Part shown: piece after piece, positions 24,302 to 64,000 of the stretch
How the letters are laid out: each line of letters begins with the position of its first letter
Position numbering within the stretch: the stretch's first letter is position 1
DNA from: Squalus acanthias
Lineage: Eukaryota
DNA: 64,000 nucleotides
NCBI GenBank assembly: GCA_030390025.1
Contig: CM059431.1
Coordinates: 143,780,001-143,844,000 of the forward strand
Direction of reading: 5' to 3'
Notes under the pieces: generated by a model
Database searches by the model: none
The model's input: the letters and a program-made list of their open reading frames with translations, nothing else
What the model was told of the DNA's origin: nothing
Translations under genes and position numbers: made by a program

Positions 24302-24369
24302 TGATGCGGAGATGCCGGTGTTGGACTGGGGTGGACAAATGTGAGAAGTCGCACAACACCAGGTTATAG
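24302..24369 (-). mobile_element. Fragment of a Penelope-like terminal repeat; target of the Tx1 array
   Basis: GATGCCGGTGTTGGACTGGGGTGGACAAATGTGAGAAGTCGCACAACACCAGGTTATAG continues at 31535 as TCCAACAGTTTTATTTGAAATCACAAGCTTTCGGAGC. I recall this as the antisense of a common shark Penelope-like repeat (AATAAA and CCGAAAGC on the minus strand). Confidence 0.6.
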
Positions 24370-25377
24370 CCTCAGCAGCCAGTAGAAGGAGAGTGAGCAG
24401 CTGAAGCAGCAGCAGCAGAGTGGTGGTCTCTGTGGCCAGGAAGAGGAGAAGGAGAAGGAGACCAGGCAGCAGGCCACCACCAACAACATCCAACAACCAC
24501 AACTACTGAGGTGCCTGGAGAGAGAGGACAGGAGAGGAGAAGGAAAAGAAAGGAAGGACAAGGCCATCAACAACAGAGGAGAGGCCTTTCCACACTGCCT
24601 CCTCAATTGGCCTCCATTTTAGGAGAGGGAGAGAGGGGAGAAAAACATCACCAACAAACATCATCTGTTTGGAAGGAGGGAGGAAGGAAAGAACAACAGC
24701 TACAGGTGGGTGTGATTCTGGGGCACTCTCCCAGAGACTTTGTTTTGTAGGTGGGGGGAGGAAAGAAGAAAAGAAGAGGGCCGGAACATCTAAGGGGTGT
24801 GTGTGTGTGTGTGGCTTCTGTAAAAGCTAGGCCGCACACACCATATTAAACACCCCTTTCCCATTGCCTGACCTGGGACAGCTGGAGCTGCCTAGGTGAA
24901 GTTCCCCAATTAATTTAATCCAATTGGGCATCGTTAAGACCTGGTGCAGGACTGAGCCTGGGCATCTCCAGCTATCCCAGGTGAAGACATCTTCTCCCCC
25001 CACCAGAAGACCACCACCAAAGACTTGTATTACATCGGAGAGTGCACCCCCCTGCCAACACCCACCCACCCACCATCCTGAGTGGCGACCCTGCCCTTGC
25101 GGCTTCCCTCCTTCCCACCCCCCTCTCTCTCTCTCTCTTTGTCTCTTGTCTCTCTCTGCCTCTCTCTCTCTAAGAGGCACCTCATCTATTTTTAATTAAG
25201 TACCCATCGAGCAGAGGGGAGAAGGCCCCTCTCCCAATTCAATCAACTAAAGGGAGAGGTGTGCCTTCAATTTAAGAGCTCCCTCTGCTCGGGGGAAAAC
25301 AAAAAAAAAAACCGAGGCCATTAACACCTTCAGGCCTGTGACTTGGGGTGAGTGTAGCCCTTAAAGAACCCTCCATT

Positions 25378-34500: not shown

Positions 34501-37500
34501 AGGGTCGTCACAAGAAGATCCGGCTGGCCCTCGACAAGTGGTCGGAGCTGACGCTGCTCGTCGTGTCCGTCCGCGCCGCCGTTAAAATCATGGGCGCGGA
34601 CAAGGACGTTGGCCGGCTCGAGCTGCGTCGGCTCAAGACGTTCCACACTGGGCTGCTGAGGGAGTGGCGGTCGTCAGTGACCGCCCTCCCTCCCCTCCGT
34701 TAGGTAGAGGTTGCACTATGCTTCTGAGATGAAGATAACCATAGCCAGCCTCAACATCAACGGCAGCAGGGAGGCGCGCCGTAGATTCAATAACTTCTCG
34801 GTCCTTCGGGACGGGAAATATGCGGTGTGCTTCCTGCAAGAAACCCACACCGTTCCGGGAGACGAGGCCACGTGGCTCCTGGAGTGGCAAGGAGGGGTCA
34901 GCATGAGTCACCTCTCCAACAATTCCTGCGGGGTGGCTGTCTTGCTGGCCCCGCATTTTCAGCCGGAGATCTTGAGGGTCAAGGAGCACGTGCCGGGCCG
35001 CTTGCTCCAGGTCACTGTTCGCCTGGGAGGCGTGCCGCTCCATTTAGTGAACGTGTACGCCCCCCGGACCGGTGCGCAGCAAGTGCGCTTCTTCGGAGAA
35101 GTGTCCGCTCTTCTGGGCTCCATCGACGTGGGCGAGTGCGTCATCCTCGGGGGGGATTTCAATTGTACCCTCGAGGCGCGGGACCGGTCGGGTCCCCCGC
35201 GAAGCCCGGCGGCGATGGAGAAGTTGCGGGACCTGGTCGGGTCCTTCGACTTGGTGGACGTCTGGCGAAATCTCCATCCCGACTCCAGCGCCTTCACGAG
35301 CGTGAGGTCTGGAGGAGGAAGGTCCAGAATCGACCGCCTTTACATTTCCCGGGCGTACGTCTCCTGCGTTCCGGCGGCTTCCATGCGGCCGGTGCCGTGC
35401 ACGGACCACCACCTGGTGTGGGCGGAGCTCGCTCCGCTGCGCGCGCGGGGGGGGTCCGCGTACTGGCATTTTAACAACCTGCTGCTGGAGGACGCGCGGT
35501 TCCGGGATTCGTTTCGCCGGTTCTGGGCCGACTGGAGAAGGAAGCGGGGAGGCTTCCCCTCCTTGAGGCTATGGTGGGACGTGGGCAAGGCTCACGTCCG
35601 CGTCTTCTGTCAGGAGTACGCGAAGGGGTCGACCAAGAGGCGGGAGGCCCGGGTCGGGCGATTGGAGAAAGAAGTGCTCGACCTGGAGTCCCGTCTCGGT
35701 CAGGTCGTCGAGGACCCGGCCCTGCGGAAGGTGTACGAAGAGAAGAAGGGCGCGCTGAAGGACCTGCAGCTGGTCGGGTCCCGAGGCGCGTACGTGAGGT
35801 CGCGGATCCAGTTCCTGCGGGACCTGGACCGCGGCTCCCCCTTCTTCTACTCGCTGGAAAAAAGACGGGGGGTCCGTAAGCAGCTCTTGGGGCTGCTGGC
35901 CGACGACGGATCTCTGGTCTCGGATCCGGAGGGCATCAGCGCGGAGGCCCGGGCCTATTACGGGGCTCTGTTCTCTTCGGATCCGTCCAGCGAGGATGCG
36001 CGCAGAGTTTTGTGGGAGGACCTGCCGAAGGTCGGCCCGGAGGGCGCCGAGAATTTAGAAGCTCCGCTAAGCCTGGCGGAGCTGACCGGCGCCCTGCGCC
36101 AGCTCTCGAGGGGCAAGTCCCCGGGGCTGGACGGGCTGACCGTGGAGTTCCACAGGGCGTTCTGGGACGTCTTGGGGGACGACTACGCGCGGGTCCTGGG
36201 GGAAAGTCTGGCGACCGGGGAGATGCCCCTCTCTTGGCGCAGGGCGGTCATCGTCCTGCTGCCCAAGAAGGGCGATCTCCGCCTACTTAAGAACTGGCGC
36301 CCGGTCTCCCTCCTCAGCACGGACTACAAAATTTTCGCCAGGGCTATGTCTGCTCGCCTTGGCACCGTGCTGGCCCGCATGATCCACCCCGACCAGTCCT
36401 ACACGGTCCCGGGCCGGAGTATCCACGATAACATCCATCTGGTCCGGGACCTGGTCCACCATTCCCAGAGGGCTGGTCTGTCGGTCGCCTTCCTTTCCCT
36501 GGATCAGGAGAAGGCGTTCGACAGGGTGGATCACGAGTATCTTTTCGGGACTCTGCGCGCATTCGGGTTCGGGACGCATTTCGTCGCCCGGATCCGACTT
36601 CTGTACGCCGCCGCGGAGTGTCTCATTAAAGTTAACGGGTCTTTGACGGCGCCCCTTCGCTTCGGGAGGGGGGTGCGTCAGGGATGCCCCATGTCCGGTC
36701 AGTTATACGCCGTTTGCGTGGAGCCTTTCCTGCGCCTCTTGCGGAAGAGGTTGACGGGACTGGCTCTGCAAGGGCCGGGCGTGGAGGTGGTCCTCTCGGC
36801 TTACGCCGATGACGTGCTCCTCGCGGTCACGGATCCCGTCGACTTGCGGAGGATGCGAGAATGCCAGCAGATTTACTCGGACGCATCCTCCGCCAAGATC
36901 AACTGGGAGAAATGTTCTGGACTCCTGGTGGGCCCATGGCAGGTGGACTCCCTGCCGGAGGAGTTCGGGCCTTTCGCCTGGAGCACCACGCACCTCCTCT
37001 ACCTGGGAGTCTACCTCAGCCCGGCCGAGGACGCCTGGCCGGCGAACTGGCAAGAGCTGGAGGCCAAAGTCACCGCTCGCCTAGGACGCTGGACAGGACT
37101 GCTCCGAGTGTTGTCCTACAGGGGTCGAGCGCTGGTCATAAACCAGCTGGTGGCCGCCATGTTGTGGTACCGGTTGGTCACTTTGATCCCTCCCCCTGCG
37201 TTTGTCGCCAAGATGCAGAAGAAGCTCGTCGACTTCTTCTGGGACAAAAGGAAGCACTGGGTCTCTGCCGCGGTTTTGAGTCTCCCGCTTAGGGAGGGCG
37301 GTCAGGCGCTGGTGTGCCTTCGCACCCAGGCGGCGACTTTCCGTCTTCAGACGCTGCAGAGATACCTGTACGTGGAGAATCCTCCTAGGTGGCGTGCGCT
37401 GGCGACGTATTTCTTCCGCCAGCTGCACGGCCTCAATTACGACACGCAGCTCCTGTTTGTGAGAGTGGGTGGCACGCGTGCCAGCCTGCGGGAGCTGCCT

Positions 37501-38695
37501 GTCTTCTACCAGGAACTGCTATGGGTTTGGAACAGCGTCGCCTCCGAGCGCAGTTCTCCCCCGTCAGGAGCGGCGGCCGTCCTTCGGGAGCCGCTGTTCA
37601 GGAATCCGCACCTCCACGACCGCGGGTTCGGCTGGCTGGCGGAGGGCAGGGCTGTGCCCGGTAAGGTGACCAGAGTCGGGGACCTGCTCGATGGCGGAGG
37701 AGCGGGCTGGATGGCGCCGGAGGAGTTGGCGAGGCGCATGTCTTGGGTCAACGTCCGGCTCGCGGTCAAAGCCATCGAGTCGCTAAAAGTGGCACTGGGC
37801 CCCGTCTCCACTAGGTGTGTCGAGGAGGCTCAAGCACGTGGGGCGATCCCGTCCGAACTGACCCCCGTTCGGACGGAATTCCTTATCGGCGCCCGGCCCC
37901 GAATCCTCCCTCGGGAGCCGCCGCCTCACCACTTGAGCCTTCTCGGAGAAATGCCCTCCGTGCCCTTTCAATCCGCACGGAGGCGTTTCCTGTACGGGCT
38001 GCTCCTGCACACTCTCCACTTTGCCATCTTCGTCTGCCGTCCGGACACGCCTTGGCGTACCATCCTGCCGTCCGGCGGAGGCGAAGGTCCCCATTGGAGG
38101 CTCTCTACGCGGGAGTCTTCCCTTGTTCTATTGGGGACTTGGCCTGGAGGGTGTTGCACGGAGCAGTCCCGTGCAATAGGATTTTAAGTAGGTTTACGGA
38201 CTCCCAGGCTGCTTGCCATTTTTGCGGCCTGGAGGAGTCCGTTTATCACATTTATGTTGAATGTGAGAGGTTGCAGCCCCTCTTTCATTATTTGAAGGGG
38301 CTGCTCCTCAATTTCTGGTTGCACTTCAGCCCCACGCTCCTGATCTACGGTCACCCGGTGCGGAGGGGAGCGGGTAGGTCGGAGGACCTCCTCGTAGGAC
38401 TGCTCCTGGGCCTGGCCAAGAAAGCCATTAATTGGTCCAGGCAGCGGGCGGTCGAGGGGGTCGTTCGGCCCGATTGCCTGCCTCTCTTCCGCGGCCATGT
38501 TCGCGCCCGGGTGGCCCTGGAGATGGAGCACGCGGTGTCCGCCGGCACGCTTGAGTTTTTCCGCGACCGGTGGGCGCCGCGGGGACTGGAGTGCATCGTC
38601 ACCCCGGACTTTCAAATTTTAATTTGATTTATTAAGTTTCATTTCAAGTTTTAATTGATTTACAGTAAATTTGCGTTCTGTCAAACCAAAAAGAT
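31572..38695 (+). mobile_element. Tx1 copy 2 (ORF1 32546-34703 frameshifted ~33516; ORF2 34729-38627 frameshifted ~38098)
   Basis: It is near-identical to copy 1, and single-base indels split both ORFs. Confidence 0.95.
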
Positions 38696-51900: not shown

Positions 51901-53033
51901 CCCCGTCAGGAGCGGCGGCCGTCCTTCGGGAGCCGCTGTTCAGGAATCCGCACCTCCACGACCGCGGGTTCGGCTGGCTGGCGGAGGGCAGGGCTGTGCC
52001 CGGTAAGGTGACCAGAGTCGGGGACCTGCTCGATGGCGGAGGAGCGGGCTGGATGGCGCCGGAGGAGTTGGCGAGGCGCATGTCCTGGGTCAACGTCCGG
52101 CTCGCGGTCAAAGCCATCGAGTCGCTAAAAGTGGCACTGGGCCCCGTCTCCACTAGGTGTGTCGAGGAGGCTCAAGCACGTGGGGCGATCCCGTCCGAAC
52201 TGACCCCCGTTCGGACGGAATTCCTTATCGGCGCCCGGCCCCGAATCCTCCCTCGGGAGCCGCCGCCTCACCACTTGAGCCTTCTCGGAGAAATGCCCTC
52301 CGTGCCCTTTCAATCCGCACGGAGGCGTTTCCTGTACGGGCTGCTCCTGCACACTCTCCACTTTGCCATCTTCGTCTGCCGTCCGGACACGCCTTGGCGT
52401 ACCATCCTGCCGTCCGGCGGAGGCGAAGGTCCCCATTGGAAGGCTCTCTACGCGGGAGTCTTCCCTTGTTCTATTGGGGACTTGGCCTGGAGGGTGTTGC
52501 ACGGAGCAGTCCCGTGCAATAGGATTTTAAGTAGGTTTACGGACTCCCAGGCTGCTTGTCATTTTGCGGCCTGGAGGAGTCCGTCTATCACATTTATATT
52601 GAATGTGAGAGGTTGCAGCCCCTCTTTCATTATTTGAAGGGGCTGCTCCTCAATTTCTGGTTGCACTTCAGCCCCACGCTCCTGATCTACGGTCACCCGG
52701 TGCGGAGGGGAGCGGGTAGGTCGGAGGACCTCCTCGTAGGACTGCTCCTGGGCCTGGCCAAGAAAGCCATTAATTGGTCCAGGCAGCGGGCGGTCGAGGG
52801 GGTCGTTCGGCCCGATTGCCTGCCTCTCTTCCGCGGCCATGTTCGCGCCCGGGTGGCCCTGGAGATGGAGCACGCGGTGTCCGCCGGCACGCTTGAGTTT
52901 TTCCGCGACCGGTGGGCGCCGCGGGGACTGGAGTGCATCGTCACCCCGGACTTTCAAATTTTAATTTGATTTATTAAGTTTCATTTAAAGTTTTAATTTG
53001 ATTTACAGTAAATTTGGGTTCAACCAAAAAGAG
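45917..53033 (+). mobile_element. Tx1 copy 4 (ORF1 46888-49045 multiply disrupted; ORF2 49071-52969 frameshifted ~52562)
   Basis: The ORF track and comparison with copy 1 support this. Confidence 0.95.
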
Positions 53034-53086
53034 CAACACCAGGTTATAGTCCAACAGCTTTATTTGAAATCACAAGCTTTCGGAGC

Positions 53087-56000
53087 TGCTGACTGAGGAG
53101 CAGCAGCAGCAGCAGCAGAGTGGTGGTCTCTGTGACCAGGAAGAGGAGAAGGAGACCAGACAGCAGACCACCACCAACAACCACTACAACTGAGGTGCCT
53201 GGAGAGAGAGGACAGGAGAGGAGAAAGAAAAGAAAGGAAGGCCAAGGCCATTAACACCAGAGGAAGGCCTTTCCATCACTGCCTCCTCAATTGGCCTCCA
53301 TTTTAGGAGAGGGAGAGAGGGGAGAAAACAACAACAACATCCATCATCTGTTTGGAAGGAGGGAGGAAGGAAAGAACAACAGCTACAGGTGGGTGTGATT
53401 CTGGGGCACTCTCCCAGAGACTTTGTTTTGTAGGTGGGGGGAGGAAAGAAGAAAAAGAAGAAGGCCGGAACATCTAAGGGGTGTGTGTGTGTGTGTGTGT
53501 GTGTGTGGCTTCTGTAAAAGCTAGGCCGCACACACCATATTAAACACCCCTTTCCCATTGCCTGACCTGGGACAGCTGGAGCTGCCTAGGTGAAGTCCCC
53601 AATTAATTTAATCTTATTGGGCATCGTTAAGACCTGGTGCAGGACTGAGCCTGGGCATCTCCAGCTATCCCAGGTGAAGACATCTTCTCCCCCCACCAGA
53701 AGACCACCACCAAAGACTTTTATTACATCGGAGAGTGCACCCCCCTGCCAACACCCACCCACCCACCATCCTGAGTGGCGACCCTGCCCTTGCGGCTTCC
53801 CTCCTTCCCACCCCCTCTCTCTCTCTCTTTGTCTCTTGTCTCTCTCTGCCTCTCTCTCTAAGAGGCACCTCAATCTATTTTAATTAAGTACCTATTGAGC
53901 AGAGGGGAGAAGGCCCCTCTCCCAATTCAATCAACTAAAGGGAGAGGTGTGCCTTCAATTTAAGAGCTCCCTCTGCTCAGGGGAAAACAGAAACAAAAAA
54001 ACCGAGGCCATTAACACCTTCAGGCCTGTGACTTGGGGTGAGTGTAGCCCTTAAAGAACCCTCCATTATGGCGACCACATCTTCGCCGGTGGCGGGGGCA
54101 GCGAGGACGTACGCGAGCGTGGCAGCCGCGGCCACGGCCGCAGCCACGAGTCCTCCTGTTACCCCGTCACCTTTTACCCTCCTTACGAGGAAGAATGGGG
54201 TCAAGAGCTACACTCACCCCAACATGACTATAGAGGCGTGCGTAAAAGCCATGGCTGGGGTTGTCGGCCCTTCAGCCATCGTCGCCGCCTCTAAAATGTA
54301 CGGCATAGCTGTGTTCTTCCTGGGGTCGGAGCGGGCGGTGTCCCTGGCCATCGAGAAGGGGCTCACCGTGGGCGGGACCTTCCTGCCGGTGGACCCCCTT
54401 GAGGCCACCGCGCAAAGGATTGTGGTTTCCAACGTCCCGCCCTTTGTTCCGGGTGAGCTCCTCCTCCCCCACCTACGTCAACTGGGGGAGGTGAGGTCGG
54501 GGATCACACCCATCCCGCTCGGCTTCCGGGAAGCCAGCCTTCGGCACGTCTTCTCCTTCCGGCGCCAGCTTTTCGTCCGGCTGGCGCGGGAGGAGGACGC
54601 GGATGGCGCGTTCACGGTGCTCCACGGGGGGACCGCCCACCGCGTCTTCTGGACCTCGGACGGCGTGCGGTGCTACGCCTGTAAGGAGGTGGGGCACGTC
54701 CGCAAAAACTGCCCCGCCTCCAAGGCCGCCACGACACCTGATACTGTCCGCGCGTCGACGGCGACGGATGCGCGGTCGAAATCGGAGGCCAACACCACCA
54801 CGGCCTCCGGCGGGGAGGAGGGAGAGCGTCCGGGGGGAAGGAAGGCGCGTAGGAAAAATAAACACCTAAGGGCGGATCCCCTCGCGGAGGAAACATCGGA
54901 GTTGACCGAACTCACGCCCGAGTACATCGCGGAGTTGGTCGGGACGCATGAGACTGGGGGGGTCCTCGTGCCCGGGCCCGTGATCGTGACCGCAACTGCT
55001 GAGGCAGCTAAATCAAGACCTGCGGCCGGGCTCGGGCCCGAGGGGCCCAAGAAACCCAGTCGTCGGAAGGGGGCAGAGAGGGAGGCCCCAGCAGACATGG
55101 AGGCCTCCCCCTCTCCGGGCCCCAATATGTTAAAAAGAAAGCTCCGCCCCCAGAGAGGAGGACTGCGAGGAGGAAGGTCCCTCCGCAAAAGGGGGGCAGT
55201 CGCCCGCCGCGGGTGCTGCGCCCCACCCCACCACCGTCATCGTCGCGCGCGATCGGCAGGGGTCGTCTGTCCCTCGGGAGGGTGAGACAGCCGAGTCTGT
55301 CCGACCTGTGCCTCCCGGGGATGGGGAAGAGACCCTGCCCGTGGGGGGGGGGGCGCGGAACAACCCGCGGAGGGAAATGTAGTTCCGGAACCGTTGCTCC
55401 TCGCCGGGTCGGGCGTCCTGGGGACTGGGGCGGGCGAGGCCAAAGAGGCTGAAGCCGAGCCCGCCTTTTATAACCCAGACATCTCCCAGGGACTGCTCGA
55501 CCTGGTGGAGGAGTGTAGCAATCCCCAGCCCGCTGGGTCGGAGGTTGGTGGCGGGGAGACGGAAAGCCCCCTGACTCCGTCTCTGTTGTTGGCGCCGGAC
55601 GTGCTGGAGGAATTTGGGATTATTTTCTCCCTGGTTTCTCCGGTCGCCCCGGCGCCTGAGGCGGGGGTGGGCCCCGAACCGCCGCCGCCGCCTCCCGGCC
55701 CGGCGCCCCTGAAGGAGCCCAGGATGGACTCCTCTGCCACCGATCCTGGGGGTGGGATCGTGACGGAGGCGGGGCCGGCCGGTGCGGCCGAGCCGTTCGC
55801 TGCACCCTGTGCGACGGACGGGTCGGCCGCCGGTGACGACCTCCCGGAGGAGGACGGGGACTCAGTGTTGGGCACTGAGGAAGATTTGGAGTCCATCAGC
55901 AGCGAGGCGATGGACGCCCTCGTGCCCTTCACCGACTCTCCCCTCATCCCCGTAGGGGAACTCCGGGATTTTGTGGCCGTGAGCCAGGGTCGTCACAAGA

Positions 56001-59000
56001 AGATCCGGCTGGCCCTCAACAAGTGGTCGGAGCTGGCGCTGCTCGTCGTGTCCGTCCGCGCCGCCGTTAAAATCATGGGCGCGGACAAGGACGTTGGCCG
56101 GCTCGAGCTGCGTCGGCTCAAGAGTTTCCACACTGGGCTGCTGAGGGAGTGGCGGTCGTCAGTGACCGCGCTCCCTCCCCTCCGTTAGGTAGAGGTTGCA
56201 CTATGCTTCTGAGATGAAGATAACCATAGCCAGCCTCTACATCAACGGCAGCAGGGAGGCGCGCCGTAGATTCAATAACTTCTCGGTCCTTCGGGACGGG
56301 AAATATGCGGTGTGCTTCCTGCAAGAAACCCACACCGTTCCGGGAGACGAGGCCACGTGGCTCCTGGAGTGGCAAGGAGGGGTCAGCATGAGTCACCTCT
56401 CTAACAATTCCTGCGGGGTGGCTGTCTTGCTGGCCCCGCATTTTCAGCCGGAGATCTTGAGGGTCAAGGAGCACGTGCCGGGCCGCTTGCTCCAGGTCAC
56501 TGTTCGCCTGGGACTCGTGCCGCTCCATTTAGTGAACGTGTACGCCCCCCGGACCGGTGCGCAGCAAGTGCGCTTCTTCGGAGAAGTGTCCGCTCTTCTG
56601 GGCTCCATCGACGTGGGTGAGTGCGTCATCCTCGGGGGGGATTTCAATTGTACCCTCGAGGCGCGGGACCGGTCGGGTCCCCCGCGAAGCCCGGCGGCGA
56701 TGGAGAAGTTGCGGGACCTGGTCGGGTCCTTCGACTTGGTGGACGTCTGGCGAAATCTCCATCCCGACTCCAGCGCCTTCACGGGCGTGAGGTCTGGAGG
56801 AGGAAGGTCCAGAATCGACCGCCTTTACATGTCCCGGGCGTACGTCTCCTGCGTTCCGGCGGCTTCCATGCGGCCGGTGCCGTGCACGGACCACCACCTG
56901 GTGTGGGCGGAGCTCGCTCCGCTGCGCGCGCGGGGGGGGTCCGCGTACTGGCATTTTAACAACCTGCTGCTGGAGGACGCGCGGTTCCGGGATTCGTTTC
57001 GCCGGTTCTGGGCCGACTGGAGAAGGAAGCGGGGAGGCTTCCCCTCCTTGAGGCTATGGTGGGACGTGGGCAAGGCTCACGTCCGCGTCTTCTGTCAGGA
57101 GTACGCGAAGGGGTCGACCAAGAGGCGGGAGGCCCGGGTCGGGCGGTTGGAGAAAGAAGTGCTCGACCTGGAGTCCCGTCTCGGTCAAGTCGTCGAGGAC
57201 CCGGCCCTGCAGAAGGTGTACGAAGAGAAGAAGGGCGCGCTGAAGGACCTGCAGCTGGTCGGGTCCCGAGGCGCGTACGTGAGGTCGCGGATCCAGTTCC
57301 TGCGGGACCTGGACCGCGGCTCCCCCTTCTTCTACTCGCTGGAAAAAAGACGGGGGGTCCGTAAGCAGCTCTTGGGGCTGCTGGCCGACGACGGATCTCT
57401 GGTCTCGGATCCGGAGGGCATCAGCGCGGAGGCCCGGGCCTATTACGGGGCTCTGTTCTCTTCGGATCCGTCCAGCGAGGATGCGCGCAGAGTTTTGTGG
57501 GAGGACCTGCCGAAGGTCGGCCCGGAGGGCGCCGAGAATTTAGAAGCTCCGCTAAGCCTGGCGGAGCTGACCGGCGCCCTGCGCCAGCTCTCGAGGGGCA
57601 AGTCCCCGGGGCTGGACGGGCTGACCGTGGAGTTCCACAGGGCGTTCTGGGACGTCTTGGGGGACGACTACGCGCGGGTCCTGGGGGAAAGTCTGGCGAC
57701 CGGGGAGATGCCCCTCTCTTGGCGCAGGGCGGTCATCGTCCTGCTGCCCAAGAAGGGCGATCTCCGCCTACTTAAGAACTGGCGCCCGGTCTCCCTCCTC
57801 AGCACGGACTACAAAATTTTCGCCAGGGCTATGTCTGCTCGCCTTGGCACCGTGCTGGCCCGCATGATCCACCCCGACCAGTCCTACACGGTCCCGGGCC
57901 GGAGTATCCACGATAACATCCATCTGGTCCGGGACCTGGTCCACCATTCCCAGAGGGCTGGTCTGTCGGTCGCCTTCCTTTCCCAGGATCAGGAGAAGGC
58001 GTTCGACAGGGTGGATCACGAGTATCTTTTCGGGACTCTGCGCGCATTCGGGTTCGGGACGCATTTCGTCGCCCGGATCCGACTTCTGTACGCCGCCGCG
58101 GAGTGTCTCATTAAAGTTAACGGGTCTTTGACGGCGCCCCTTCGCTTCGGGAGGGGGGTGCGTCAGGGATGCCCCATGTCCGGTCAGTTATACGCCGTTT
58201 GCATGGAGCCTTTCCTGCGCCTCTTGCGGAAGAGGTTGACGGGACTGGCTCTGCAAGGGCCGGGCGTGGAGGTGGTCCTCTCGGCTTACGCCGATGACGT
58301 GCTCCTCGCGGTCACGGATCCCGTCGACTTGCGGAGGATGCGAGAATGCCAGCAGATTTACTCGGACGCATCCTCCGCCAAGATCAACTGGGAGAAATGT
58401 TCTGGACTCCTGGTGGGCCCATGGCGGGTGGACTCCCTGCCGGAGGAGTTCGGGCCTTTCGCCTGGAGCACCACGCACCTCCTCTACGTGGGAGTCTACC
58501 TCAGCCCGGCCGAGGACGCCTGGCCGGCGAACTGGCAAGAGCTGGAGGCCAAAGTCACCGCTCGCCTAGGACGCTGGACAGGACTGCTCCGAGTGTTGTC
58601 CTACAGGGGTCGAGCGCTGGTCATAAACCAGCTGGTGGCCGCCATGTTGTGGTACCGGTTGATCACTTTGATCCCTCCCCCTGCGTTTGTCGCCAAGATG
58701 CAGAAGAAGCTCGTCGACTTCTTCTGGGACAAAAGGAAGCACTGGGTCTCTGCCGCGGTTTTGAGTCTCCCGCTTAGGGAGGGCGGTCAGGCGCTGGTGT
58801 GCCTTCGCACCCAGGCGGCGACTTTCCGTCTTCAGACGCTGCAGAGATACCTGTACGTGGAGAATCCTCCTAGGTGGCGTGCGCTGGCGACGTATTTCTT
58901 CCGCCAGCTGCACGGCCTCAATTACGACACGCAGCTCCTGTTTGTGAGAGTGGGTGGCACGCGTGCCAGCCTGCGGGAGCTGCCTGTCTTCTACCAGGAA

Positions 59001-60180
59001 CTGCTATGGGTTTGGAACAGCGTCGCCTCCGAGCGCAGTTCTCCCCCGTCAGGAGCGGCGGCCGTCCTTCGGGAGCCGCTGTTCAGGAATCCGCACCTCC
59101 ACGACCGCGGGTTCGGCTGGCTGGCGGAGGGCAGGGCTGTGCCCGGTAAGGTGACCAGAGTCGGGGACCTGCTCGATGGCGGAGGAGCGGGCTGGATGGC
59201 GCCGGAGGAGTTGGCGAGGCGCATGTCCTGGGTCAACGTCCGGCTCACGGTCAAAGCCATCGAGTCGCTAAAAGTGGCACTGGGCCCCGTCTCCACTAGG
59301 TGTGTCGAGGAGGCTCGAGCACGTGGGGCGATCCCGTCCGAACTGACCCCCGTTCGGACGGAATTCCTTATCGGCGCCCGGCCCCGAATCCTCCCTCGGG
59401 AGCCGCCGCCTCACCACTTGAGCCTTCTCGGAGAAATGCCCTCCGTGCCCTTTCAATCCGCACGGAGGTGTTTCCTGTACGGGCTGCTCCTGCACACTCT
59501 CCACTTTGCCATCTTCGTCTGCCGTCCGGACACGCCTTGGCGTACCATCCTGCCGTCCGGCGGAGGCGAAGGTCCCCATTGGAAGGCTCTCTACGCGGGA
59601 GTCTTCCCTTGTTCTATTGGGGACTTGGCCTGGAGGGTGTTGCACGGAGCAGTCCCGTGCAATAGGATTTTAAGTAGGTTTACGGACTCCCAGGCTGCTT
59701 GTCATTTCTGCGGCCTAGAGGAGTCCGTCTATCACATTTATATTGAGTGTGAGAGGTTGCAGCCCCTCTTTCATTATTTGAAGGGGCTGCTCCTCAATTT
59801 CTGGTTGCACTTCAGCCCCACGCTCCTGATCTACGGTCACCCGGTGCGGAGGGGAGCGGGTAGGTCGGAGGACCTCCTCGTAGGACTGCTCCTGGGTCTG
59901 GCCAAGAAAGCCATTAATTTGTCTAGGCAGCGGGCGGTCGAGGGGGTCGTTCGGCCCGATTGCCTGCCCATCTTCCGCGGCCATGTTCGCGCCCGGGTGG
60001 CCCTGGAGATGGAGCACGCGGTGTCCGCCGGCACGCTTGAGTTTTTCCGCGACCGGTGGGCGCCGCGGGGACTGGAGTGCATCGTCACCACGGACTTCCA
60101 AATTTTGATTTGATTTATTAAATTTCATTTAAAGTTTTAATTGATTTACAGTAAATTTTGATTTGTTCAACCAAAAAGAG
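53087..60180 (+). mobile_element. Tx1 copy 5 (ORF1 54068-56188 with 39-bp deletion and indels; ORF2 open)
   Basis: The ORF track and comparison with copy 1 support this. Confidence 0.95.
56214..60113 (+). CDS. Tx1 ORF2 copy 5: open frame, but SLNING>SLYING and LSLDQEK>LSQDQEK
   Basis: The full 1299-aa frame is open, with substitutions in or next to conserved APE and RT motifs. Confidence 0.9.
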   Translation: MKITIASLYINGSREARRRFNNFSVLRDGKYAVCFLQETHTVPGDEATWLLEWQGGVSMSHLSNNSCGVAVLLAPHFQPEILRVKEHVPGRLLQVTVRLGLVPLHLVNVYAPRTGAQQVRFFGEVSALLGSIDVGECVILGGDFNCTLEARDRSGPPRSPAAMEKLRDLVGSFDLVDVWRNLHPDSSAFTGVRSGGGRSRIDRLYMSRAYVSCVPAASMRPVPCTDHHLVWAELAPLRARGGSAYWHFNNLLLEDARFRDSFRRFWADWRRKRGGFPSLRLWWDVGKAHVRVFCQEYAKGSTKRREARVGRLEKEVLDLESRLGQVVEDPALQKVYEEKKGALKDLQLVGSRGAYVRSRIQFLRDLDRGSPFFYSLEKRRGVRKQLLGLLADDGSLVSDPEGISAEARAYYGALFSSDPSSEDARRVLWEDLPKVGPEGAENLEAPLSLAELTGALRQLSRGKSPGLDGLTVEFHRAFWDVLGDDYARVLGESLATGEMPLSWRRAVIVLLPKKGDLRLLKNWRPVSLLSTDYKIFARAMSARLGTVLARMIHPDQSYTVPGRSIHDNIHLVRDLVHHSQRAGLSVAFLSQDQEKAFDRVDHEYLFGTLRAFGFGTHFVARIRLLYAAAECLIKVNGSLTAPLRFGRGVRQGCPMSGQLYAVCMEPFLRLLRKRLTGLALQGPGVEVVLSAYADDVLLAVTDPVDLRRMRECQQIYSDASSAKINWEKCSGLLVGPWRVDSLPEEFGPFAWSTTHLLYVGVYLSPAEDAWPANWQELEAKVTARLGRWTGLLRVLSYRGRALVINQLVAAMLWYRLITLIPPPAFVAKMQKKLVDFFWDKRKHWVSAAVLSLPLREGGQALVCLRTQAATFRLQTLQRYLYVENPPRWRALATYFFRQLHGLNYDTQLLFVRVGGTRASLRELPVFYQELLWVWNSVASERSSPPSGAAAVLREPLFRNPHLHDRGFGWLAEGRAVPGKVTRVGDLLDGGGAGWMAPEELARRMSWVNVRLTVKAIESLKVALGPVSTRCVEEARARGAIPSELTPVRTEFLIGARPRILPREPPPHHLSLLGEMPSVPFQSARRCFLYGLLLHTLHFAIFVCRPDTPWRTILPSGGGEGPHWKALYAGVFPCSIGDLAWRVLHGAVPCNRILSRFTDSQAACHFCGLEESVYHIYIECERLQPLFHYLKGLLLNFWLHFSPTLLIYGHPVRRGAGRSEDLLVGLLLGLAKKAINLSRQRAVEGVVRPDCLPIFRGHVRARVALEMEHAVSAGTLEFFRDRWAPRGLECIVTTDFQILI

Positions 60181-60233
60181 CAACACCAGGTTATAGTCCA
60201 ACAGCTTTATTTGAAATCACAAGCTTTAGGAGC

Positions 60234-63200
60234 TGCTGACTGAGGAGCAGCAGCAGCAGCAGCAGAGTGGTGGTCTCTGTGACCAGGAAGAGGAGAAGGA
60301 GACCAGACAGCAGACCACCACCAACAACCACTACAACTGAGGTGCCTGGAGAGAGAGGACAGGAGAGGAGAAAGAAAAGAAAGGAAGGCCAAGGCCATTA
60401 ACACCAGAGGAGAGGCCTTTCCATCACTGCCTCCTCAATTGGCCTCCATTTTAGGAGAGGGAGAGAGGGGAGAAAACAACAACAACATCCATCATCTGTT
60501 TGGAAGGAGGGAGGAAGGAAAGAACAACAGCTACAGGTGGGTGTGATTCTGGGGCACTCTCCCAGAGACTTTGTTTTGTAGGTGGGGGGAGGAAAGAAGA
60601 AAAAGAAGAAGGCCGGAACATCTAAGGGGTGTGTGTGTGTGTGGCTTCTGTAAAAGCTAGGCCGCACACACCATATTAAACACCCCTTTCCCATTGCCTG
60701 ACCTGGGACAGCTGGAGCTGCCTAGGTGAAGTCCCCAATTAATTTAATCTTATTGGGCATCGTTAAGACCTGGTGCAGGACTGAGCCTGGGCATCTCCAG
60801 CTATCCCAAGTGAAGACATCTTCTCCCCCCACCAGAAGACCACCACCAAAGACTTTTATTACATCGGAGAGTGCACCCCCCTGCCAACACCCACCCACCC
60901 ACCATCCTGAGTGGCGACCCTGCCCTTGCGGCTTCCCTCCTTCCCACCCCCTCTCTCTCTCTCTTTGTCTCTTGTCTCTCTCTGCCTCTCTCTCTAAGAG
61001 GCACCTCAATCTATTTTAATTAAGTACCTATTGAGCAGAGGGGAGAAGGCCCCTCTCCCAATTCAATCAACTAAAGGGAGAGGTGTGCCTTCAATTTAAG
61101 AGCTCCCTCTGCTCAGGGGAAAACAGAAACAAAAAACCGAGGCCATTAACACCTTCAGGCCTGTGACTTGGGGTGAGTGTAGCCCTTAAAGACCAACCCA
61201 TCATGGCGACCACATCTTCGCCGGTGGCGGGGGCAGCGAGGACATACGCAAGCGTGGCAGCCGCGGCCACGGCCGCAGCCACGAGTCCTCCTGTTACCCC
61301 GTCACCTTTTACCCTCCTTACGAGGAAGAATGGGTCAAGAGCTACACTCACCCCAATATGACAATAGAGGCGTGCGTAAAAGCCATGGCTGGGGTTGTCG
61401 GCCCTTCAGCCATCGTCGCCGCCTCTAAAATGTACGGCATGGCTGTGTTCTTCCTGGGGTCGGAGCGGGCGGTGTCCCTGGCCATCGAGAAGGGGCTCAC
61501 CGTGGGCGGGACCTTCCTGCCGGTGGACCCCCTTGAGGCCACCGCGCAAAGGATTGTGGTTTCCAACGTCCCGCCCTTTGTTCCGGGTGAGCTCCTCCTC
61601 CCCCACCTACGTCAACTGGGGGAGGTGCGGTCGGGGATCACACCCATCCCGCTCGGCTTCCGGGAAGCCAGCCTTCGGCACGTCTTCTCCTTCCGGCGCC
61701 AGCTTTTCGTCCGGCTGGCGCGGGAGGAGGACGCGGATGGCGCGTTCACGGTGCTCCACGGGGGGACCGCCCACCGCGTCTTCTGGACCTCGGACGGCGT
61801 GCGGTGCTATGCCTGTAAGGAGGTGGGGCACGTCCGCAAAAACTGCCCCGCCTCCAAGGCCGCCACGACACCTGGCGCGGCCAGGGCTGGCGCCGCCGCC
61901 CCCCCTCCCCCTGATACTGTCCGCGTGTCGACGGCGACGGATGCGCGGTCGAAATCGGAGGCCAACACCACCACGGCCTCCGGCGGGGAGGAGGGAGAGC
62001 GTCCGGGGGGAAGGAAGGCGCGTAGGAAAAATAAACACCTAAGGGCGGAACCCCTCGCGGAGGAAACATCAGAGTTGACCGAACTCACGCCCGAGTACAT
62101 CGCGGAGTTGGTCGGGATGCATGAGACTGGGGGGGTCCTCGTGACCGGGCCCATGACCGTGACCGCAACTGCTGAGGCAGCTAAATCAAGACCTGCGGCC
62201 GGGCTCGGGCCCGAGGGGCCCAAGAAACCCAGTCGTCGGAAGGGGGCAGAGAGGGAGGCCCCAGCAGACATGGAGGCCTCCCCCTCTCCGGGCCCCAATA
62301 TGTTAAAAAGAAAGCTCCGCCCCTAGGAGGAGGAGGACTGCGAGGAGGAAGGTCCCTCCGCAGAAGGGGGGGAGTCGCCCGCCGCGGGTGCTGCGCCCAA
62401 CCCCACCACCGTCATCATCGCGCGCGATCGGCGGGGGTCGTCTGTCCCTCGGGAGGGTGAGACAGCCGAGTCTGTCCGACCTGTGCCTCCCGGGGATGGG
62501 GAAGAGACCCTGCCCGTGGGGGGGGGTGCGGCACAACCCGCGGAGGGAAATGTAGTTCCGGAACCGTTGCTCCTCGCCGGGTCGGGCGTCCTGGGGACTG
62601 GGGCGGGCGAGGCCAAAGAGGCTGAAGCCGAGTCCGCCTTTTATAACCCAGACATCTCCCAGGGACTGCTCGACCTGGTGGAGGAGTGTAGCAGTCCCCG
62701 GCCCGCTGGGTCGGAGGTTGGTGGCGGGGAGACGGAAAGCCCCCTGACTCCGTCTCTGTTGTTGGCGCCGGACGTGCTGGAGGAATTTGGGATTATTTTC
62801 TCCCCGGTTTCTCCGGTCGCCCCGGCGCCTGAGGCGGGGGGGGGGCCCGAACCGCCGCCGCCGCCTTCCGGCCGGCGCCCCTGAAGGAGCCCAGGGTGGA
62901 CTCCTCTGCCACCGATCCTGGGGGTGGGATCATGACGGAGGCGGGGCCAGCCGGTGCGGCCGAGCCGTTCGCTGCACCCTGTGTGATGGACGGGTTGGCC
63001 GCCGGTGACGACCTCCCGGAGGAGGACGGGGACTCGGTGTTGGGCATCGAGGACGATTTGGATTCCATCGGCAGCGAGGTGATGGACGCCCTCGTGCCCT
63101 TCACCGACTCTCCCCTCATCCCCGTAGGGGAACTCCGGGATTTTATGGCCATGAGCCAGGGTCGTCACAAGAAGATCCGGCTGGCCCTCGACAAGTGGTC

Positions 63201-64000
63201 GGAACTGGCGCTGCTCGTCGTGTCCGTCCGCGCCGCCGTTAAAATCATGGGCGCGGACAAGGACGTTGGCCGGCTCGAGCTGCGTCAGCTCAAGAGTTTC
63301 CACACTGGGCTGCTGAGGGAGTGGCGGTCGTCAGTGACCGCGCTCCCTCCCCTCCGTTAGGTAGAGGTTGCACTATGCTTCTGAGATGAAGATAACCATA
63401 GCCAGCCTCAACATCAAGGGCAGCAGGGAGGCGCGCCGTAGAGTCAATAACTTCTCGGTCCTTCGGGACGGGAAATATGCGGTGTGCTTCCTGCAAGAAA
63501 CCCACACCATTCCGGGAGACGAGGCCATGTGGCTCCTGGAGTGGCAAGGAGGGGTCAGCATGAGTCACCTCTCTAACAATTCCTGCGGGGTGGCTGTCTT
63601 GCTGGCCCCGCATTTTCAGTCGGAGATCTTGAGGGTCAAGGAGCACGTGCCGGGCCGCTTGCTCCAGGTCACTGTTCGCCTGGGAGGCGTGCCGCTCCAT
63701 TTAGTGAACGTGTACGCCCCCCGGACCGGTGCGCAGCAAGTGCGCTTCTTCGGAGAAGTGTTCGCTCTTCTGGGCTCCATTGACGTGGGCGAGTGCGTCA
63801 TCCTCGGGGGGGATTTCAATTGTACCCTCGAGGCGCGGGACCGGTCGGGTCCCCCGCGAAGCCCGGAGGCGATGGAGAAGTTGCGGGACCTGGTCGGGTC
63901 CTTCGACTTGGTGGACGTCTGGCGAAATCTCCATCCCGACTCCAGCGCCTTCACGAGCGTGAGGTCTGGAGGAGGAAGGTCCAGAATTGACCGCCTTTAC
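60234..64000 (+). mobile_element. Tx1 copy 6, runs off the window (ORF1 61203-63360 with frameshifts and TAG at 62324; ORF2 starts 63386)
   Basis: It is homologous to copies 1-5 and appears to carry the most private substitutions. Confidence 0.93.

What the first reader, a model, noticed from the sequence alone, without database searches (positions are those of the whole stretch)
24302..64000. Sequence-specific Tx1 retrotransposon that regenerates its own target and builds a head-to-tail array
Seen: at least six ~7.17-kb Tx1 elements lie in the same orientation (periods 7165, 7177, 7168, 7170, 7147 bp). All five visible 3' ends abut exactly CAACACCAGGTTATAG. That 16-mer also precedes copy 1 as a TSD (24354-24369), and 53 bp of target lies in front of copies 2-6. 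Known: Tx1-clade APE elements are often target-specific (Tx1L into Tx1D, Keno into U2 snRNA, Mutsu into 5S rRNA, Dewa into tRNA spacers, Kibi/Koshi into microsatellites). Inference: each insertion restores about 53 bp of target at its 5' side, either as a long TSD or as target carried on the RNA. The leftmost junction then keeps upstream plus downstream target and is hit again. The layout resembles leader-polarized CRISPR growth, but with 7-kb retrotransposons as the inserted units.
Basis: partly seen in the sequence, partly recalled or inferred. Interest (0 to 1): 0.9.

Follow-up and report, generated by a model that had tools for sequence, protein, structure and literature searches.

The report
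Target-specific Tx1 retrotransposon building tandem arrays
A young jumping gene of the Tx1 type inserts at one exact spot in the tail of another very abundant repeat, recreates that spot at its own front end, and so piles up head-to-tail; this behaviour is already known for the insect R1 element, so it is a clear new example and not a new principle.

Summary
The exact 16-mer lies at all six stated places. The array runs past the window to at least nine copies inside one copy of the target repeat. ORF2 has endonuclease and reverse transcriptase domains and is 50% identical over 99% of its length to Xenopus Tx1 ORF2.

The element is site-specific genome-wide. There are 972 exact 3' junctions, and the target 30-mer occurs 90,712 times. 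All 20 of 20 sampled outermost junctions continue into a local target copy. Arrays lie on many contigs.

The true target-site duplication is about 15-16 bp. The rest of the "53 bp" is usually a heritable leader carried by the element. It differs from the local target at 7 of 14 loci.

In this window the copies are independent insertions, and the young ones lie at the upstream-target end:
- Private ORF2 changes run 0, 0, 0, 1, 21, 51, then 34, 46.
- A single clade for the array is rejected (p = 0.0037).

Other arrays show local amplification.

Re-insertion into the duplicated target is published for R1 (PMC2718515) and for Tx1-mobilised SINEU-3 (PMC4494074). This is a new member of a known kind.

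The parts
24293..24302 (+). Left copy of a 10-bp direct repeat (TTTGAGATTT) that flanks the whole target-repeat copy with the array inside it. The right copy lies outside the window near ext 85825.
   Evidence: The same 10-mer sits directly before the start of the target repeat and directly after its truncated inverted arm.
24303..24353 (+). Upstream half (U) of the target repeat, ending ...GAGAAGTCGCA. The repeat is the antisense 3' tail of an abundant retroelement that encodes a GIY-YIG-like ORF.
   Evidence: family copies; 90,712 exact 30-mers; GIY-YIG lead, atlas score 0.97; no Pfam hit.
24354..24369 (+). 16-mer at the 5' side of copy 1. It is the target-site duplication (15-16 bp), followed directly by the full-length 5' end of the CCTCAG type.
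   Evidence: The same junction type occurs at 61 places genome-wide.
24370..31518 (+). Copy 1, 7149 bp. ORF1 is at 25348-26793 and ORF2 at 27537-31454 (1305 aa, open). It is the only copy of this array with the leaderless CCTCAG-type 5' end.
   Evidence: Its ORF2 is near-identical over 3918 nt to 37 other places and has 0 private ORF2 changes.
31519..31576 (+). Inner junction 2: the 16-mer plus a 37-42-nt target-like leader, fused to the 5' UTR of copy 2 (...GGAGCTGCTGAC/GAGGAGCAGCAG).
   Evidence: The fusion 20-mer occurs 544 times in the genome.
31577..38695 (+). Copy 2. It has a 1-nt deletion in ORF2 (possibly an assembly error) and 0 private ORF2 substitutions.
38696..45863 (+). Junction 3 plus copy 3. 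It has two 1-nt deletions in ORF2 and 0 private ORF2 substitutions.
45864..53033 (+). Junction 4 plus copy 4. It has a 1-nt deletion in ORF2 and 1 private ORF2 substitution.
53034..60180 (+). Junction 5 plus copy 5. ORF2 is open (1306 codons stop to stop) and has 21 private ORF2 substitutions.
60181..64000 (+). Junction 6 plus the 5' half of copy 6, which is cut by the window end and ends at ext 67380. It has 51 private ORF2 substitutions and one in-frame stop.

Best explanation
This is a young family of non-LTR retrotransposons of the Tx1 clade, probably still active. Each full-length copy is about 7.15 kb and carries ORF1 with a CCHC knuckle and ORF2 with an APE endonuclease, a reverse transcriptase and a C-terminal zinc-binding region.

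Inferred mechanism of insertion: the endonuclease nicks one defined position, ...GAGAAGTCGCA | CAACACCAGG..., in the antisense 3' tail of a very abundant retroelement. That retroelement is probably Penelope-like, and its tails often lie as foldbacks, so both arms can be hit. Reverse transcription is primed at the nick. The top strand is cut about 15-16 bp further on, which gives the 15-16-bp duplication.

The leader: most full-length copies also carry a heritable leader of 37 or more nt at their 5' end. It copies the target just downstream of the duplication. The left junction of a new insertion therefore reads upstream target + duplication + leader, which is an intact target. I infer that the leader pairs the end of the cDNA with the cut top strand. 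That would explain the precise 5' junctions and the high share of full-length copies.

Array growth: the regenerated site is hit again, so copies stack head to tail, and in this window newer copies lie at the upstream-target end. Once two copies lie side by side, homology-driven events also act. These could be unequal exchange, or new cDNAs resolved against the resident copy. They give array-specific junctions and short-period arrays elsewhere.

Shown here: site specificity, the junction anatomy, that the leader is carried by the element, independent origin of the copies in this array, and the age gradient. Inferred: the nick positions, the role of the leader in second-strand priming, and whether upstream target is required for re-targeting.
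For: Family and youth:
- ORF2 domains.
- 50% identity over 99% of Xenopus Tx1 ORF2, P0004, E = 0.
- 37 other places match the 3918-nt ORF2 at 7048-7062 bits, against 7066 for self.

Site specificity:
- 972 exact junction 23-mers, 0 for the reversed control.
- 73 of 100 places with the 3' motif have the exact junction.
- All 20 of 20 outermost junctions continue into a local, variable target copy.
- Convergent insertions sit in both arms of one foldback.

Duplication and leader:
- Left ends of 11 of 11 resolvable arrays have upstream target directly before the 16-mer.
- CCTCAG-type copies follow the 16-mer directly.
- The leader differs from the locus's own downstream target at 7 of 14 loci, with 3 or more mismatches at 4. 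One solo sits in a different target subfamily. Positions 2-16 never differ.
- Rare leader variants recur at separate loci.
- Counts of exact 5' markers: 899 five-prime anchors, 544 leader fusions, 61 CCTCAG ends.

Independent insertions in this array:
- Copy 1 has a different 5' type.
- The 3' 1.4 kb of the window copies is not clustered among 28 copies from other arrays: 7 label changes against 7.4 when shuffled, and the AU test rejects one clade at p = 0.0037.
- Differences between copies 1-2, 2-3 and 3-4 are 35:7, 42:8 and 49:14 for the 5' 3 kb against the 3' 4.2 kb (p below 1e-7). The old pair 5-6 is even at 63:83 (p = 0.74), whereas the old pair 8-9 at 108:95 still leans to the 5' part (p = 0.001).
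- Four arrays mix CCTCAG-type and leader-type copies head to tail.

Polarity:
- Private ORF2 substitutions left to right are 0, 0, 0, 1, 21, 51, (copy 7 lost in the gap), 34, 46. Spearman 0.90, p = 0.002.
- For whole units, rho is 0.82, p = 0.007.

Precedent: R1 arrays separated by the 14-bp duplication are explained the same way (PMC2718515, section 13, passages read).
Against: - The 5' 1.4 kb does not reject a single clade for the window copies (AU p = 0.30). It shows some clustering: 5 changes against 8.1 when shuffled.
- In the 13 arrays sampled, inner junction types are nearly uniform within an array. Five arrays carry rare, array-private types, and pure independent insertion does not predict that.
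- Two copies 14.4 kb apart at C2:68.25M are identical over 1.4 kb with a long shared stem, which means local duplication. The leader of that array carries three private variants of the local target.
- Arrays with exact short periods (2289, about 970 and about 500 bp) exist.
- The age order is not strictly monotonic: copy 8 is younger than copy 6.
- An upstream-target fragment appears inside the array right after the assembly gap. I cannot explain it.
- At C2:4.33M the two 3'-most copies are among the best matches to the young ORF2, so polarity is not shown to be general.
- The outside copies in the trees were picked as best matches to one junction, so they are biased towards young copies.
Confidence: 0.75

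Rival explanations
1. One insertion at this locus was amplified by unequal crossing-over or replication slippage. Under this reading the array in the window is a local tandem duplication and not a series of retrotranspositions.
For: - Local amplification does occur in this family. L027 and L028 are identical copies.
- Array-private junction types occur in 5 of 13 arrays.
- Arrays with exact periods of 2289 and about 970 bp exist.
- Copies 4-6 of the window share leader type and 5' variants.
- The 5' 1.4-kb tree does not reject one clade (p = 0.30).
Against: - Copy 1 has a different, leaderless 5' end, and the same type occurs at 61 places.
- The 3' 1.4 kb rejects one clade (p = 0.0037).
- No pair of copies is near-identical: the smallest distance is 0.59%.
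- Differences among the young copies are 5-7 times denser in the 5' UTR and ORF1 than in ORF2. That fits divergence in active lineages, not decay in place.
- Leader subtypes in the array (TGAGG, GAAGG and others) are the same ones seen in other arrays.
- The left-to-right age gradient is not expected from random unequal exchange.
Confidence: 0.07
2. Re-insertion is real but not polar. Every junction in an array keeps the nick site plus downstream target and can be hit, so upstream target is not needed. Under this reading the gradient in this window is chance or reflects later rearrangement.
For: - All inner junctions keep positions 1-53 of the target.
- One 3' flank keeps only 18 bp of target downstream (L084), so little sequence may be needed.
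- The age order is not strictly monotonic.
- At C2:4.33M the two 3'-most copies have near-identical young ORF2.
- In the 500-bp array the 3' tails of inner units carry different genome-wide haplotypes. This could come from priming at inner junctions.
Against: - Spearman 0.90, p = 0.002, for position against private ORF2 changes.
- The four youngest copies are the four nearest the upstream target.
- In 3 of 12 arrays the copy whose 5' type differs from the rest is the leftmost one, though C2:164.56M has a differing subtype at its rightmost copy.
Confidence: 0.15
3. Arrays are laid down in one event. Either the reverse transcriptase jumps from the 5' end of one RNA to the 3' end of another RNA that carries read-through target, or a multi-unit read-through transcript is copied.
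For: - Some 3' ends away from the target carry 5-9 nt of target-like tail (L144, L147, L148, L150, L153, L154, L155). This suggests that the RNA runs a few bases into the downstream target.
- The leader shows that target-derived sequence travels on the RNA.
- Template jumping is cited for 5' extensions in PMC4494074, section 17.
Against: - Copies of one array differ in age from 0 to 1.3% private ORF2 changes.
- They also differ in 5' type.
- A single event would give copies of equal age.
- Read-through tails seen off target are only 5-9 nt, not 53.
Confidence: 0.03

Closest known systems
Tandem R1 arrays in the 28S rRNA genes of Drosophila (Stage and Eickbush 2009, PMC2718515, section 'Tandem R1 arrays'; passages read)
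   Same: Both are site-specific non-LTR elements with an APE-type endonuclease. In both, head-to-tail copies sit at the normal insertion site and are separated by exactly the target-site duplication (14 bp there, 16 bp in the CCTCAG-type arrays here). The published explanation is insertion of further elements into the duplication at the 5' end of a resident copy. The same paper also describes D. melanogaster tandem-like R1s that all share one identical junction and reads them as amplification of a single event. That is the counterpart of the array-private junctions found here.
   Different: - The clades differ: R1 against Tx1.
- The target there is a gene in the rDNA array. Here it is a dispersed repeat with more than 90,000 sites, so arrays arise at many unlinked loci.
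- R1-inserted units hold two to three copies on average. Here at least nine full-length copies lie in one site.
- Most copies here also carry a 37+ nt leader that copies downstream target. R1 RNA carries upstream 28S sequence.
Tx1L of Xenopus laevis, inserted in the DNA transposon Tx1D (facts as stated in PMC1950540 and PMC4494074, passages read; the original papers were not held)
   Same: ORF2 here is 50% identical over 99% of its length. Both have a highly specific endonuclease, and in both the target is another transposable element.
   Different: The target here is the tail of a retroelement with a GIY-YIG-like ORF, not a piggyBac-type DNA transposon. I could not read whether Tx1L forms arrays or carries a target-like leader.
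Tx1-Mar families and the SINEU-3 elements they mobilise in crocodilians (Kojima 2015, PMC4494074; sections 14, 15 and 17 read in passages or whole)
   Same: - Tx1-clade elements there also target one position of an abundant transposon (Mariner-N4_AMi).
- The expected duplication is 16 nt.
[quoted passage not shown]
- Some copies carry 5' extensions derived from the target transposon, which points to a master copy inside a target.
   Different: There the tandems described are pairs of short SINEs. Here they are long arrays of full-length autonomous elements. The leader here is a fixed, family-wide feature (544 exact fusions) and copies the downstream side of the nick.
Chimeric L1 insertions resolved against a resident L1 (Gilbert et al. 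2002 and Symer et al. 2002; recalled, not read here)
   Same: A new cDNA started by target-primed reverse transcription is completed by homology with a resident copy. This is my reading of the mosaic units in the 500-bp array.
   Different: In L1 the outcome is a chimera with a deletion. Here it would be a unit-length addition or a conversion of the 3' tail. This comparison rests on recall only.

Membership tests
Tx1 clade of APE-type non-LTR retrotransposons | ORF2 with an N-terminal apurinic/apyrimidinic-type endonuclease followed by a reverse transcriptase | tested here: met
   Exo_endo_phos at residues 12-233 (1.7e-11) and RVT_1 at residues 518-767 (8.5e-38).
Tx1 clade of APE-type non-LTR retrotransposons | ORF2 closer to Tx1 than to other clades | tested here: inconclusive
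   the named Xenopus Tx1 149-kDa protein (P0004) matches at 50% identity over 99% of the query, E = 0, with near-equal length (1308 against 1305 aa). Another hit is also named transposon TX1 by its source (P0059). No clade-wide tree with L1, R1 and other outgroups was built.
Tx1 clade of APE-type non-LTR retrotransposons | ORF1 with a CCHC zinc knuckle (recalled as typical of this group) | tested here: met
   zf-CCHC at 21.2 bits against a cut-off of 20.8. This is marginal.
Tx1 clade of APE-type non-LTR retrotransposons | Sequence-specific insertion, which many members of the clade show (PMC4494074, introduction) | tested here: met
Arrays built by re-insertion into the regenerated target (R1 type) | Copies lie at the normal insertion site and are separated by the target-site duplication | tested here: met
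   inner junctions at C3:16.48M and C3:62.64M are the 16-mer followed directly by the full 5' end. In leader-type arrays the spacer is the 16-mer plus the leader.
Arrays built by re-insertion into the regenerated target (R1 type) | Copies of one array are independent insertions and not duplicates of each other | tested here: met
   For the window array only. AU p = 0.0037 on the 3' 1.4 kb, a different 5' type for copy 1, and selection-shaped differences. The 5' 1.4 kb is not decisive (p = 0.30).
Arrays built by re-insertion into the regenerated target (R1 type) | Upstream target is kept at the 5' edge of the array | tested here: met
   11 of 11 resolvable left ends. Two of the 13 arrays were not resolvable: one has a gap and one has no 5' end at the expected place.
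Arrays built by re-insertion into the regenerated target (R1 type) | The endonuclease cuts the regenerated site | not testable with these tools
   This needs a nicking assay.
Tandem amplification by unequal exchange | Copies of an array share private variants and one junction and are near-identical | tested here: not met
   Not met for the window array. It is met at C2:68.25M, and the exact-period arrays suggest it elsewhere.
Penelope-like retroelement (as the identity of the target) | A GIY-YIG endonuclease ORF upstream of the tail, and a reverse transcriptase | tested here: inconclusive
   A 223-aa frame sits next to the tail in L054. The protein atlas gives 0.97 to clusters in which 18-27% of members carry PF01541. 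Pfam gives no hit at E up to 0.01. No reverse transcriptase was looked for, and Rfam found no hammerhead in 14 loci.

The most novel reading that the evidence does not exclude
Array growth may often not be plain re-insertion. In this reading, a reverse-transcription event primed at the regenerated site is completed by homology with the resident copy next door. The top strand of the resident, cut at a variable distance, primes second-strand synthesis on the new cDNA. Each event then adds exactly one unit whose 5' part (junction, leader, truncation point) is inherited locally and whose 3' part comes from a distant donor. The target-like leader would be an evolved device. It would be a piece of downstream target captured once and kept because it gives the cDNA a built-in landing pad. 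That would explain why about 80% of copies are full length. Loci would then behave as self-extending, one-sided records of which donor lineages were active, in order.
Probability: 0.3. Interest if true: 0.6.

Novelty: new member of a known kind. Interest (0 to 1): 0.42.

Why it matters
This is a clean vertebrate example of how a site-specific retrotransposon can renew its own landing site. It is young: dozens of ORF2 copies are nearly identical. With about 900 full-length copies spread over many loci, it offers natural replicates for questions that R1 and R2 cannot answer, because those sit inside the homogenising rDNA.

Questions it makes testable:
- How much upstream and downstream sequence does a Tx1-type endonuclease need?
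- How is the 5' junction made?
- How often do retrotransposition and recombination cooperate?

Enzymes of this kind are of interest for targeted DNA insertion, so a family with a defined 30-bp site and precise full-length junctions is a useful specimen. It does not change the known picture of how such arrays arise.

Tried and rejected
- **Rfam.** At gathering thresholds Rfam gave 0 matches on the whole window. An E-value scan of 14 target loci gave only sub-threshold microRNA-hairpin look-alikes of the foldback and no hammerhead.
- **Pfam.** It gave no family for the 223-aa frame next to the target tail.
- **A discarded inference.** I first took the G at position 1 of some 3' junctions as a local target variant proving a 16-bp duplication. 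G is common at outermost junctions (18 of the first 100), while the left copy always has C. It is therefore more likely a variable last base of the element, and I dropped the argument.
- **A miscount.** I first counted 'leader differs from local target in 8 of 9 arrays' by eye. The scripted count is 7 of 14 loci.
- **Polarity in other arrays.** The ORF2 search with no loci lists only the 40 best places and cannot rank all copies of an array.
- **RNA evidence.** No RNA holder was listed. The runs laid are contigs of uncertain kind. They show only that a 706-nt contig of coded run X12 bridges 3' end, leader and 5' UTR, and that the leader region is swamped by target-repeat contigs.
- **Papers.** The original Tx1L papers were not held. 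One paper search failed on a term that was too short. A search for Tx1 + Penelope + shark + retrotransposon (listing only) showed no paper on this family. That search, is the basis for saying I found no description of it. Repbase could not be consulted.
- **Earlier findings of this scan.** Nothing turned up near this place or by sequence.

Full report
**1. The observation**

The 16-mer CAACACCAGGTTATAG occurs exactly six times in the window, at the stated coordinates, against 0.04 expected by chance. The periods are 7165, 7177, 7168, 7170 and 7147. Aligning the six junctions shows two things:
- At the five inner junctions the 16-mer is preceded by the same AT-rich 3' end (...AACCAAAAAGAG or ...GAT).
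- There it is followed by 37 more bases, then the (CAG)n-rich start of the next unit.

At 24354 the 16-mer is instead preceded by other sequence. It is followed directly by a longer 5' end that starts CCTCAGCAGCC.

Each unit is 58-66% G+C. It carries ORF1 with a marginal CCHC knuckle and an ORF2 of 1305 aa with endonuclease, reverse transcriptase and a sub-threshold zf-RVT match. Rfam finds nothing in the window.

**2. Extent of the array**

The window is G000:C7:143780001-143844000 in a 3.7-Gb assembly. I fetched 80 kb to the right. Coordinates marked 'ext' run over the window plus this fetched sequence. Further junctions lie at ext 67381, 70782 and 77976, and a last one at 85739. A 200-N gap lies at ext 70570-70769.

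After the last junction the target sequence runs on for 44 bases. It then folds back into its own reverse complement, followed by TTTGAGATTT. That 10-mer also sits directly before the target repeat at 24293-24302. So one copy of the target repeat, with its own 10-bp flanking duplication, holds the whole array of at least nine copies.

One thing I cannot explain. Directly after the gap, 12 bases of upstream target (TGAGAAGTCGCA) precede the junction at ext 70782. This could be a second haplotype joined in, a scaffolding error or a real inner site.

**3. What the element is**

ORF2 matches the Xenopus laevis protein named 'Transposon TX1 uncharacterized 149 kDa protein' at 50% identity over 99% of its length, E = 0, with nearly the same length. 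Partial hits of higher identity come from cartilaginous fishes. I did not build a clade-wide tree, so clade membership rests on this similarity plus the domain order.

The family is young. 37 other places match the full 3918-nt ORF2 without gaps, at 7048-7062 bits against 7066 for the query itself.

**4. What the target is**

The uninterrupted 30-mer across the insertion point occurs 45,386 + 45,326 times in the genome, and 0 times for the reversed control. Thirty copies taken in genome order show a repeat family whose copies vary beyond the first 24 or so bases downstream. They often lie as foldbacks, with a plus and a minus copy 100-200 bp apart.

Longer members continue into a 223-aa open frame on the opposite strand. 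A protein-language-model search places that frame next to clusters annotated GIY-YIG, at score 0.97, with PF01541 on 18-27% of members. Pfam itself gives no hit.

The target is therefore the antisense 3' tail of a retroelement with a GIY-YIG-like endonuclease, most likely Penelope-like. My Rfam scan of 14 target loci found no hammerhead, so that part is a lead only.

**5. Site specificity genome-wide**

- The 23-letter junction motif (the last 7 bases of the element plus the 16-mer) occurs 458 + 514 = 972 times. The control gives 0.
- An 18-mer of the 3' UTR alone occurs 1105 times.
- Of its first 100 places in genome order, 73 have the exact junction within 90 nt.

I read 15 of the other 27:
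- 5 are the target with point changes.
- 2 are the target with an internal deletion of the foldback.
- 2 are the spacer followed by a 5'-truncated copy.
- 6 end in only 5-9 bases of the target motif and then unrelated DNA. One more of this kind (L155) belongs to the 2289-bp-period array.
- The 12 not read belong mostly to the same short-period arrays or to duplications inside the 3' UTR.

The short-tailed cases suggest that the template RNA runs a few bases into the downstream target and that off-target events carry that tail. Without empty sites this stays an inference.

All 20 of the 20 outermost junctions on contigs C1 and C2, taken in genome order, continue into a local target copy. Those copies differ from one another downstream. 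At C2:164.56M, two elements face each other in the two arms of one foldback. Three such convergent pairs are in the first 100 places.

**6. Duplication and leader**

I sampled 13 arrays on C1-C4, defined only by spacing in the list, and their expected left ends.

- In 11 of 11 resolvable left ends the last 13 or more bases of upstream target stand directly before the 16-mer. Two arrays could not be resolved.
- Two arrays, and copy 1 of the window, have the 16-mer followed directly by the CCTCAG-type 5' end. The staggered cut is therefore about 15-16 bp.
- All other full-length copies carry extra target-like sequence between the 16-mer and the (CAG)n region.

Where does that extra sequence come from? 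I compared it with the locus's own downstream target at 11 arrays and 3 solo insertions.
- Positions 2-16 never differ.
- Positions 17-53 differ at 7 of 14 loci, with 3 or more mismatches at 4. One solo's local target belongs to a different subfamily.
- They are identical at 7 of 14.
- At C2:68.25M the leader shares three private variants with the local target.

So the leader is normally inherited with the element, which means it is on the RNA. It can also be overwritten by local sequence. That fits second-strand priming by the cut top strand annealed to the leader's complement, with a variable cut site. This last step is inference.

Rare leader variants recur at unlinked loci. One fusion is seen at C2:132.27M, at the left end of C2:4.33M, in the solo C1:45207873 and next to the 500-bp array. 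This confirms that leader variants are heritable.

Genome counts of exact markers are 899 five-prime anchors, 544 canonical leader fusions and 61 CCTCAG-type ends. About 80% of copies therefore reach the 5' end (899 against 1105), which is unusually many for a LINE.

**7. How the window array grew**

Pairwise distances between the nine units range from 0.59% to 4.0%, and no pair is near-identical. Four lines of evidence point to separate insertions:

- Copy 1 has a different 5' end type from all the others.
- I built a tree of the last 1.4 kb of eight window copies and 28 copies from other arrays. The window copies are not clustered: 7 label changes against 7.4 when shuffled. The AU test rejects holding them together (p = 0.0037). 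The outside copies were chosen as best matches to junction 2, so they are young. That bias cannot create false interleaving.
- Differences between the young neighbours 1-2, 2-3 and 3-4 fall 35:7, 42:8 and 49:14 in the 5' 3 kb against the 3' 4.2 kb (binomial p from 4e-8 to 1e-9). The old pair 5-6 is even at 63:83 (p = 0.74); the old pair 8-9, at 108:95, still leans to the 5' part (p = 0.001). ORF2 was thus under selection while the lineages leading to the young copies diverged, which means they diverged as active elements and not in place.
- The leader subtypes in the array (TGAGG, GAAGG and others) are the ones found in other arrays.

Against this, the first 1.4 kb shows some clustering (5 changes against 8.1) and does not reject one clade (p = 0.30). 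Copies 4-6 share leader and 5' variants.

**8. Polarity**

Private substitutions in ORF2, left to right, are 0, 0, 0, 1, 21, 51, (copy 7 lost in the gap), 34 and 46 of about 3918 sites. Spearman rho is 0.90, p = 0.002. Over whole units rho is 0.82, p = 0.007. Ten sites are shared by copies 1-3 only, and several by the rightmost copies only. That pattern is expected if a slowly changing source lineage was sampled in order.

ORF2 is open in copies 1 and 5. Copies 2-4 each have their own 1-nt deletions, which may be assembly errors. Copies 6, 8 and 9 have stops, and copy 9 has a 570-bp insertion.

At C2:4.33M the two 3'-most copies are among the 40 best matches to the young ORF2. Either that whole array is young or addition is not confined to the left edge.

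**9. Local processes in other arrays**

Within each of the 13 arrays the inner junctions are nearly uniform. Five arrays have private types or private variants. In three of twelve arrays (C2:4.33M, C3:16.48M and the window) the leftmost copy has a different type from the rest. Four arrays mix CCTCAG-type and leader-type copies.

At C2:68.25M, two copies 14.4 kb apart are identical over 1.4 kb on both sides, with a long shared stem. That is plainly a local duplication.

Arrays with periods of exactly 2289, about 970 and about 500 bp exist. I read the 500-bp one. Its six units share one truncation point 482 nt from the 3' end, one private spacer variant and private changes in their first 70 nt. 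Yet their last 110 nt carry four different haplotypes, and these are the ones seen genome-wide.

Plain duplication cannot supply the different tails, and plain insertion cannot repeat one truncation point. The simplest reading has two steps:
- Reverse transcription starts at a junction from a foreign RNA.
- The product is then resolved by homology with the resident copy. This either adds one unit or converts a tail.

I rate this at about 0.3 as a general mode of array growth.

**10. Comparison with what is known**

Stage and Eickbush (PMC2718515; passages of the section 'Tandem R1 arrays' read) found R1 arrays in seven Drosophila species. The copies are separated by the 14-bp duplication, and the authors concluded that further elements insert into the duplication at the 5' end of a resident copy. 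They also describe D. melanogaster tandem-like R1s that share one identical rearranged junction, read as amplification of a single event.

Kojima (PMC4494074; passages of section 14 and all of section 17 read) describes Tx1-clade families aimed at one position of a Mariner transposon. The paper also reports an expected 16-nt duplication, tandem SINEU-3 copies 'sandwiching a TSD' taken as sequential insertions, and 5' extensions derived from the target.

The principle is therefore published, both in a sister clade and for Tx1-mobilised SINEs. The following are specific to this case:
- The target is a Penelope-like tail.
- Long arrays of full-length autonomous copies lie at many unlinked loci.
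- A fixed leader copies the downstream side of the nick.
- Units are mosaic.

I found no paper on this family (searches; listings and passages only). I could not consult Repbase or Dfam.

**11. Verdict**

The case is a new member of a known kind, with some variant features worth a specialist's look. Interest is about 0.4.

Noticed in passing
L069 (G000:C2:164560001-164566000), locus positions about 2553-2700: Two elements face each other, 3' end to 3' end, across a 129-bp foldback of the target repeat. Each sits at the same site in its own arm. Two more such pairs are in the first 100 junction places (C2:164776948/164777077 and C4:152277727/152277816).
   Followed up: partly
L158 (G000:C2:154045150-154048450): Six tandem units of about 500 bp. 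Each is the 16-nt spacer plus the last 482 nt of the element. All share one truncation point and one private spacer variant, but they carry four different 3' tail haplotypes seen genome-wide. A full-length copy follows.
   Followed up: yes
G000:C2:150177078-150183945 and G000:C3:151241206-151243147 (places only): Tandem arrays with periods of exactly 2289 bp and about 970 bp that contain the element's 3' end. In the first (L155) the 3' end is followed by only 8 target-like bases and then other DNA, so flanking DNA is part of the repeated unit.
   Followed up: partly
L144, L147, L148, L150, L153, L154: Six 3' ends away from the target repeat still carry 5-9 bases of the target motif before unrelated DNA. 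This suggests that the template RNA ends a few bases inside the downstream target.
   Followed up: partly
ext 70770-70781 (L031 positions 6770-6781), just right of the 200-N gap: Twelve bases of upstream target stand inside the array, in front of copy 8, which is younger than copy 6. This could be a joined second haplotype, a scaffolding error or a real second growth point.
   Followed up: no
L040, L044, L051 (minus strand): In several loci a shortened form of the target repeat begins at the same point inside a reverse-transcriptase-like reading frame of another LINE (...NWLSHR followed by the repeat). This hints at a composite that was itself amplified.
   Followed up: no
window 5008-5253, 7387-7761, 13471-13594 and 8504-8642, 11389-11527: Two kinds of short tandem repeat, with 61-bp and 32-bp units, recur at a spacing of about 2.4-2.9 kb in the left third of the window. 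This suggests a larger repeated unit unrelated to the array.
   Followed up: no
ext 77976-85738 (copy 9): Copy 9 is 7763 bp long because of a 570-bp insertion in ORF2 at about unit position 5257. I did not examine the insert.
   Followed up: no
window 31250-31950 laid on coded runs: A 706-nt contig of run X12 (coded organism E) bridges 3' end, leader and 5' UTR with 13 other letters. Seven runs of two studies, all labelled organism A or B, hold half or more of the sampled words, and runs of five further organism labels hold 0.31-0.45. The junction form may therefore exist in related species or in other individuals.
   Followed up: partly
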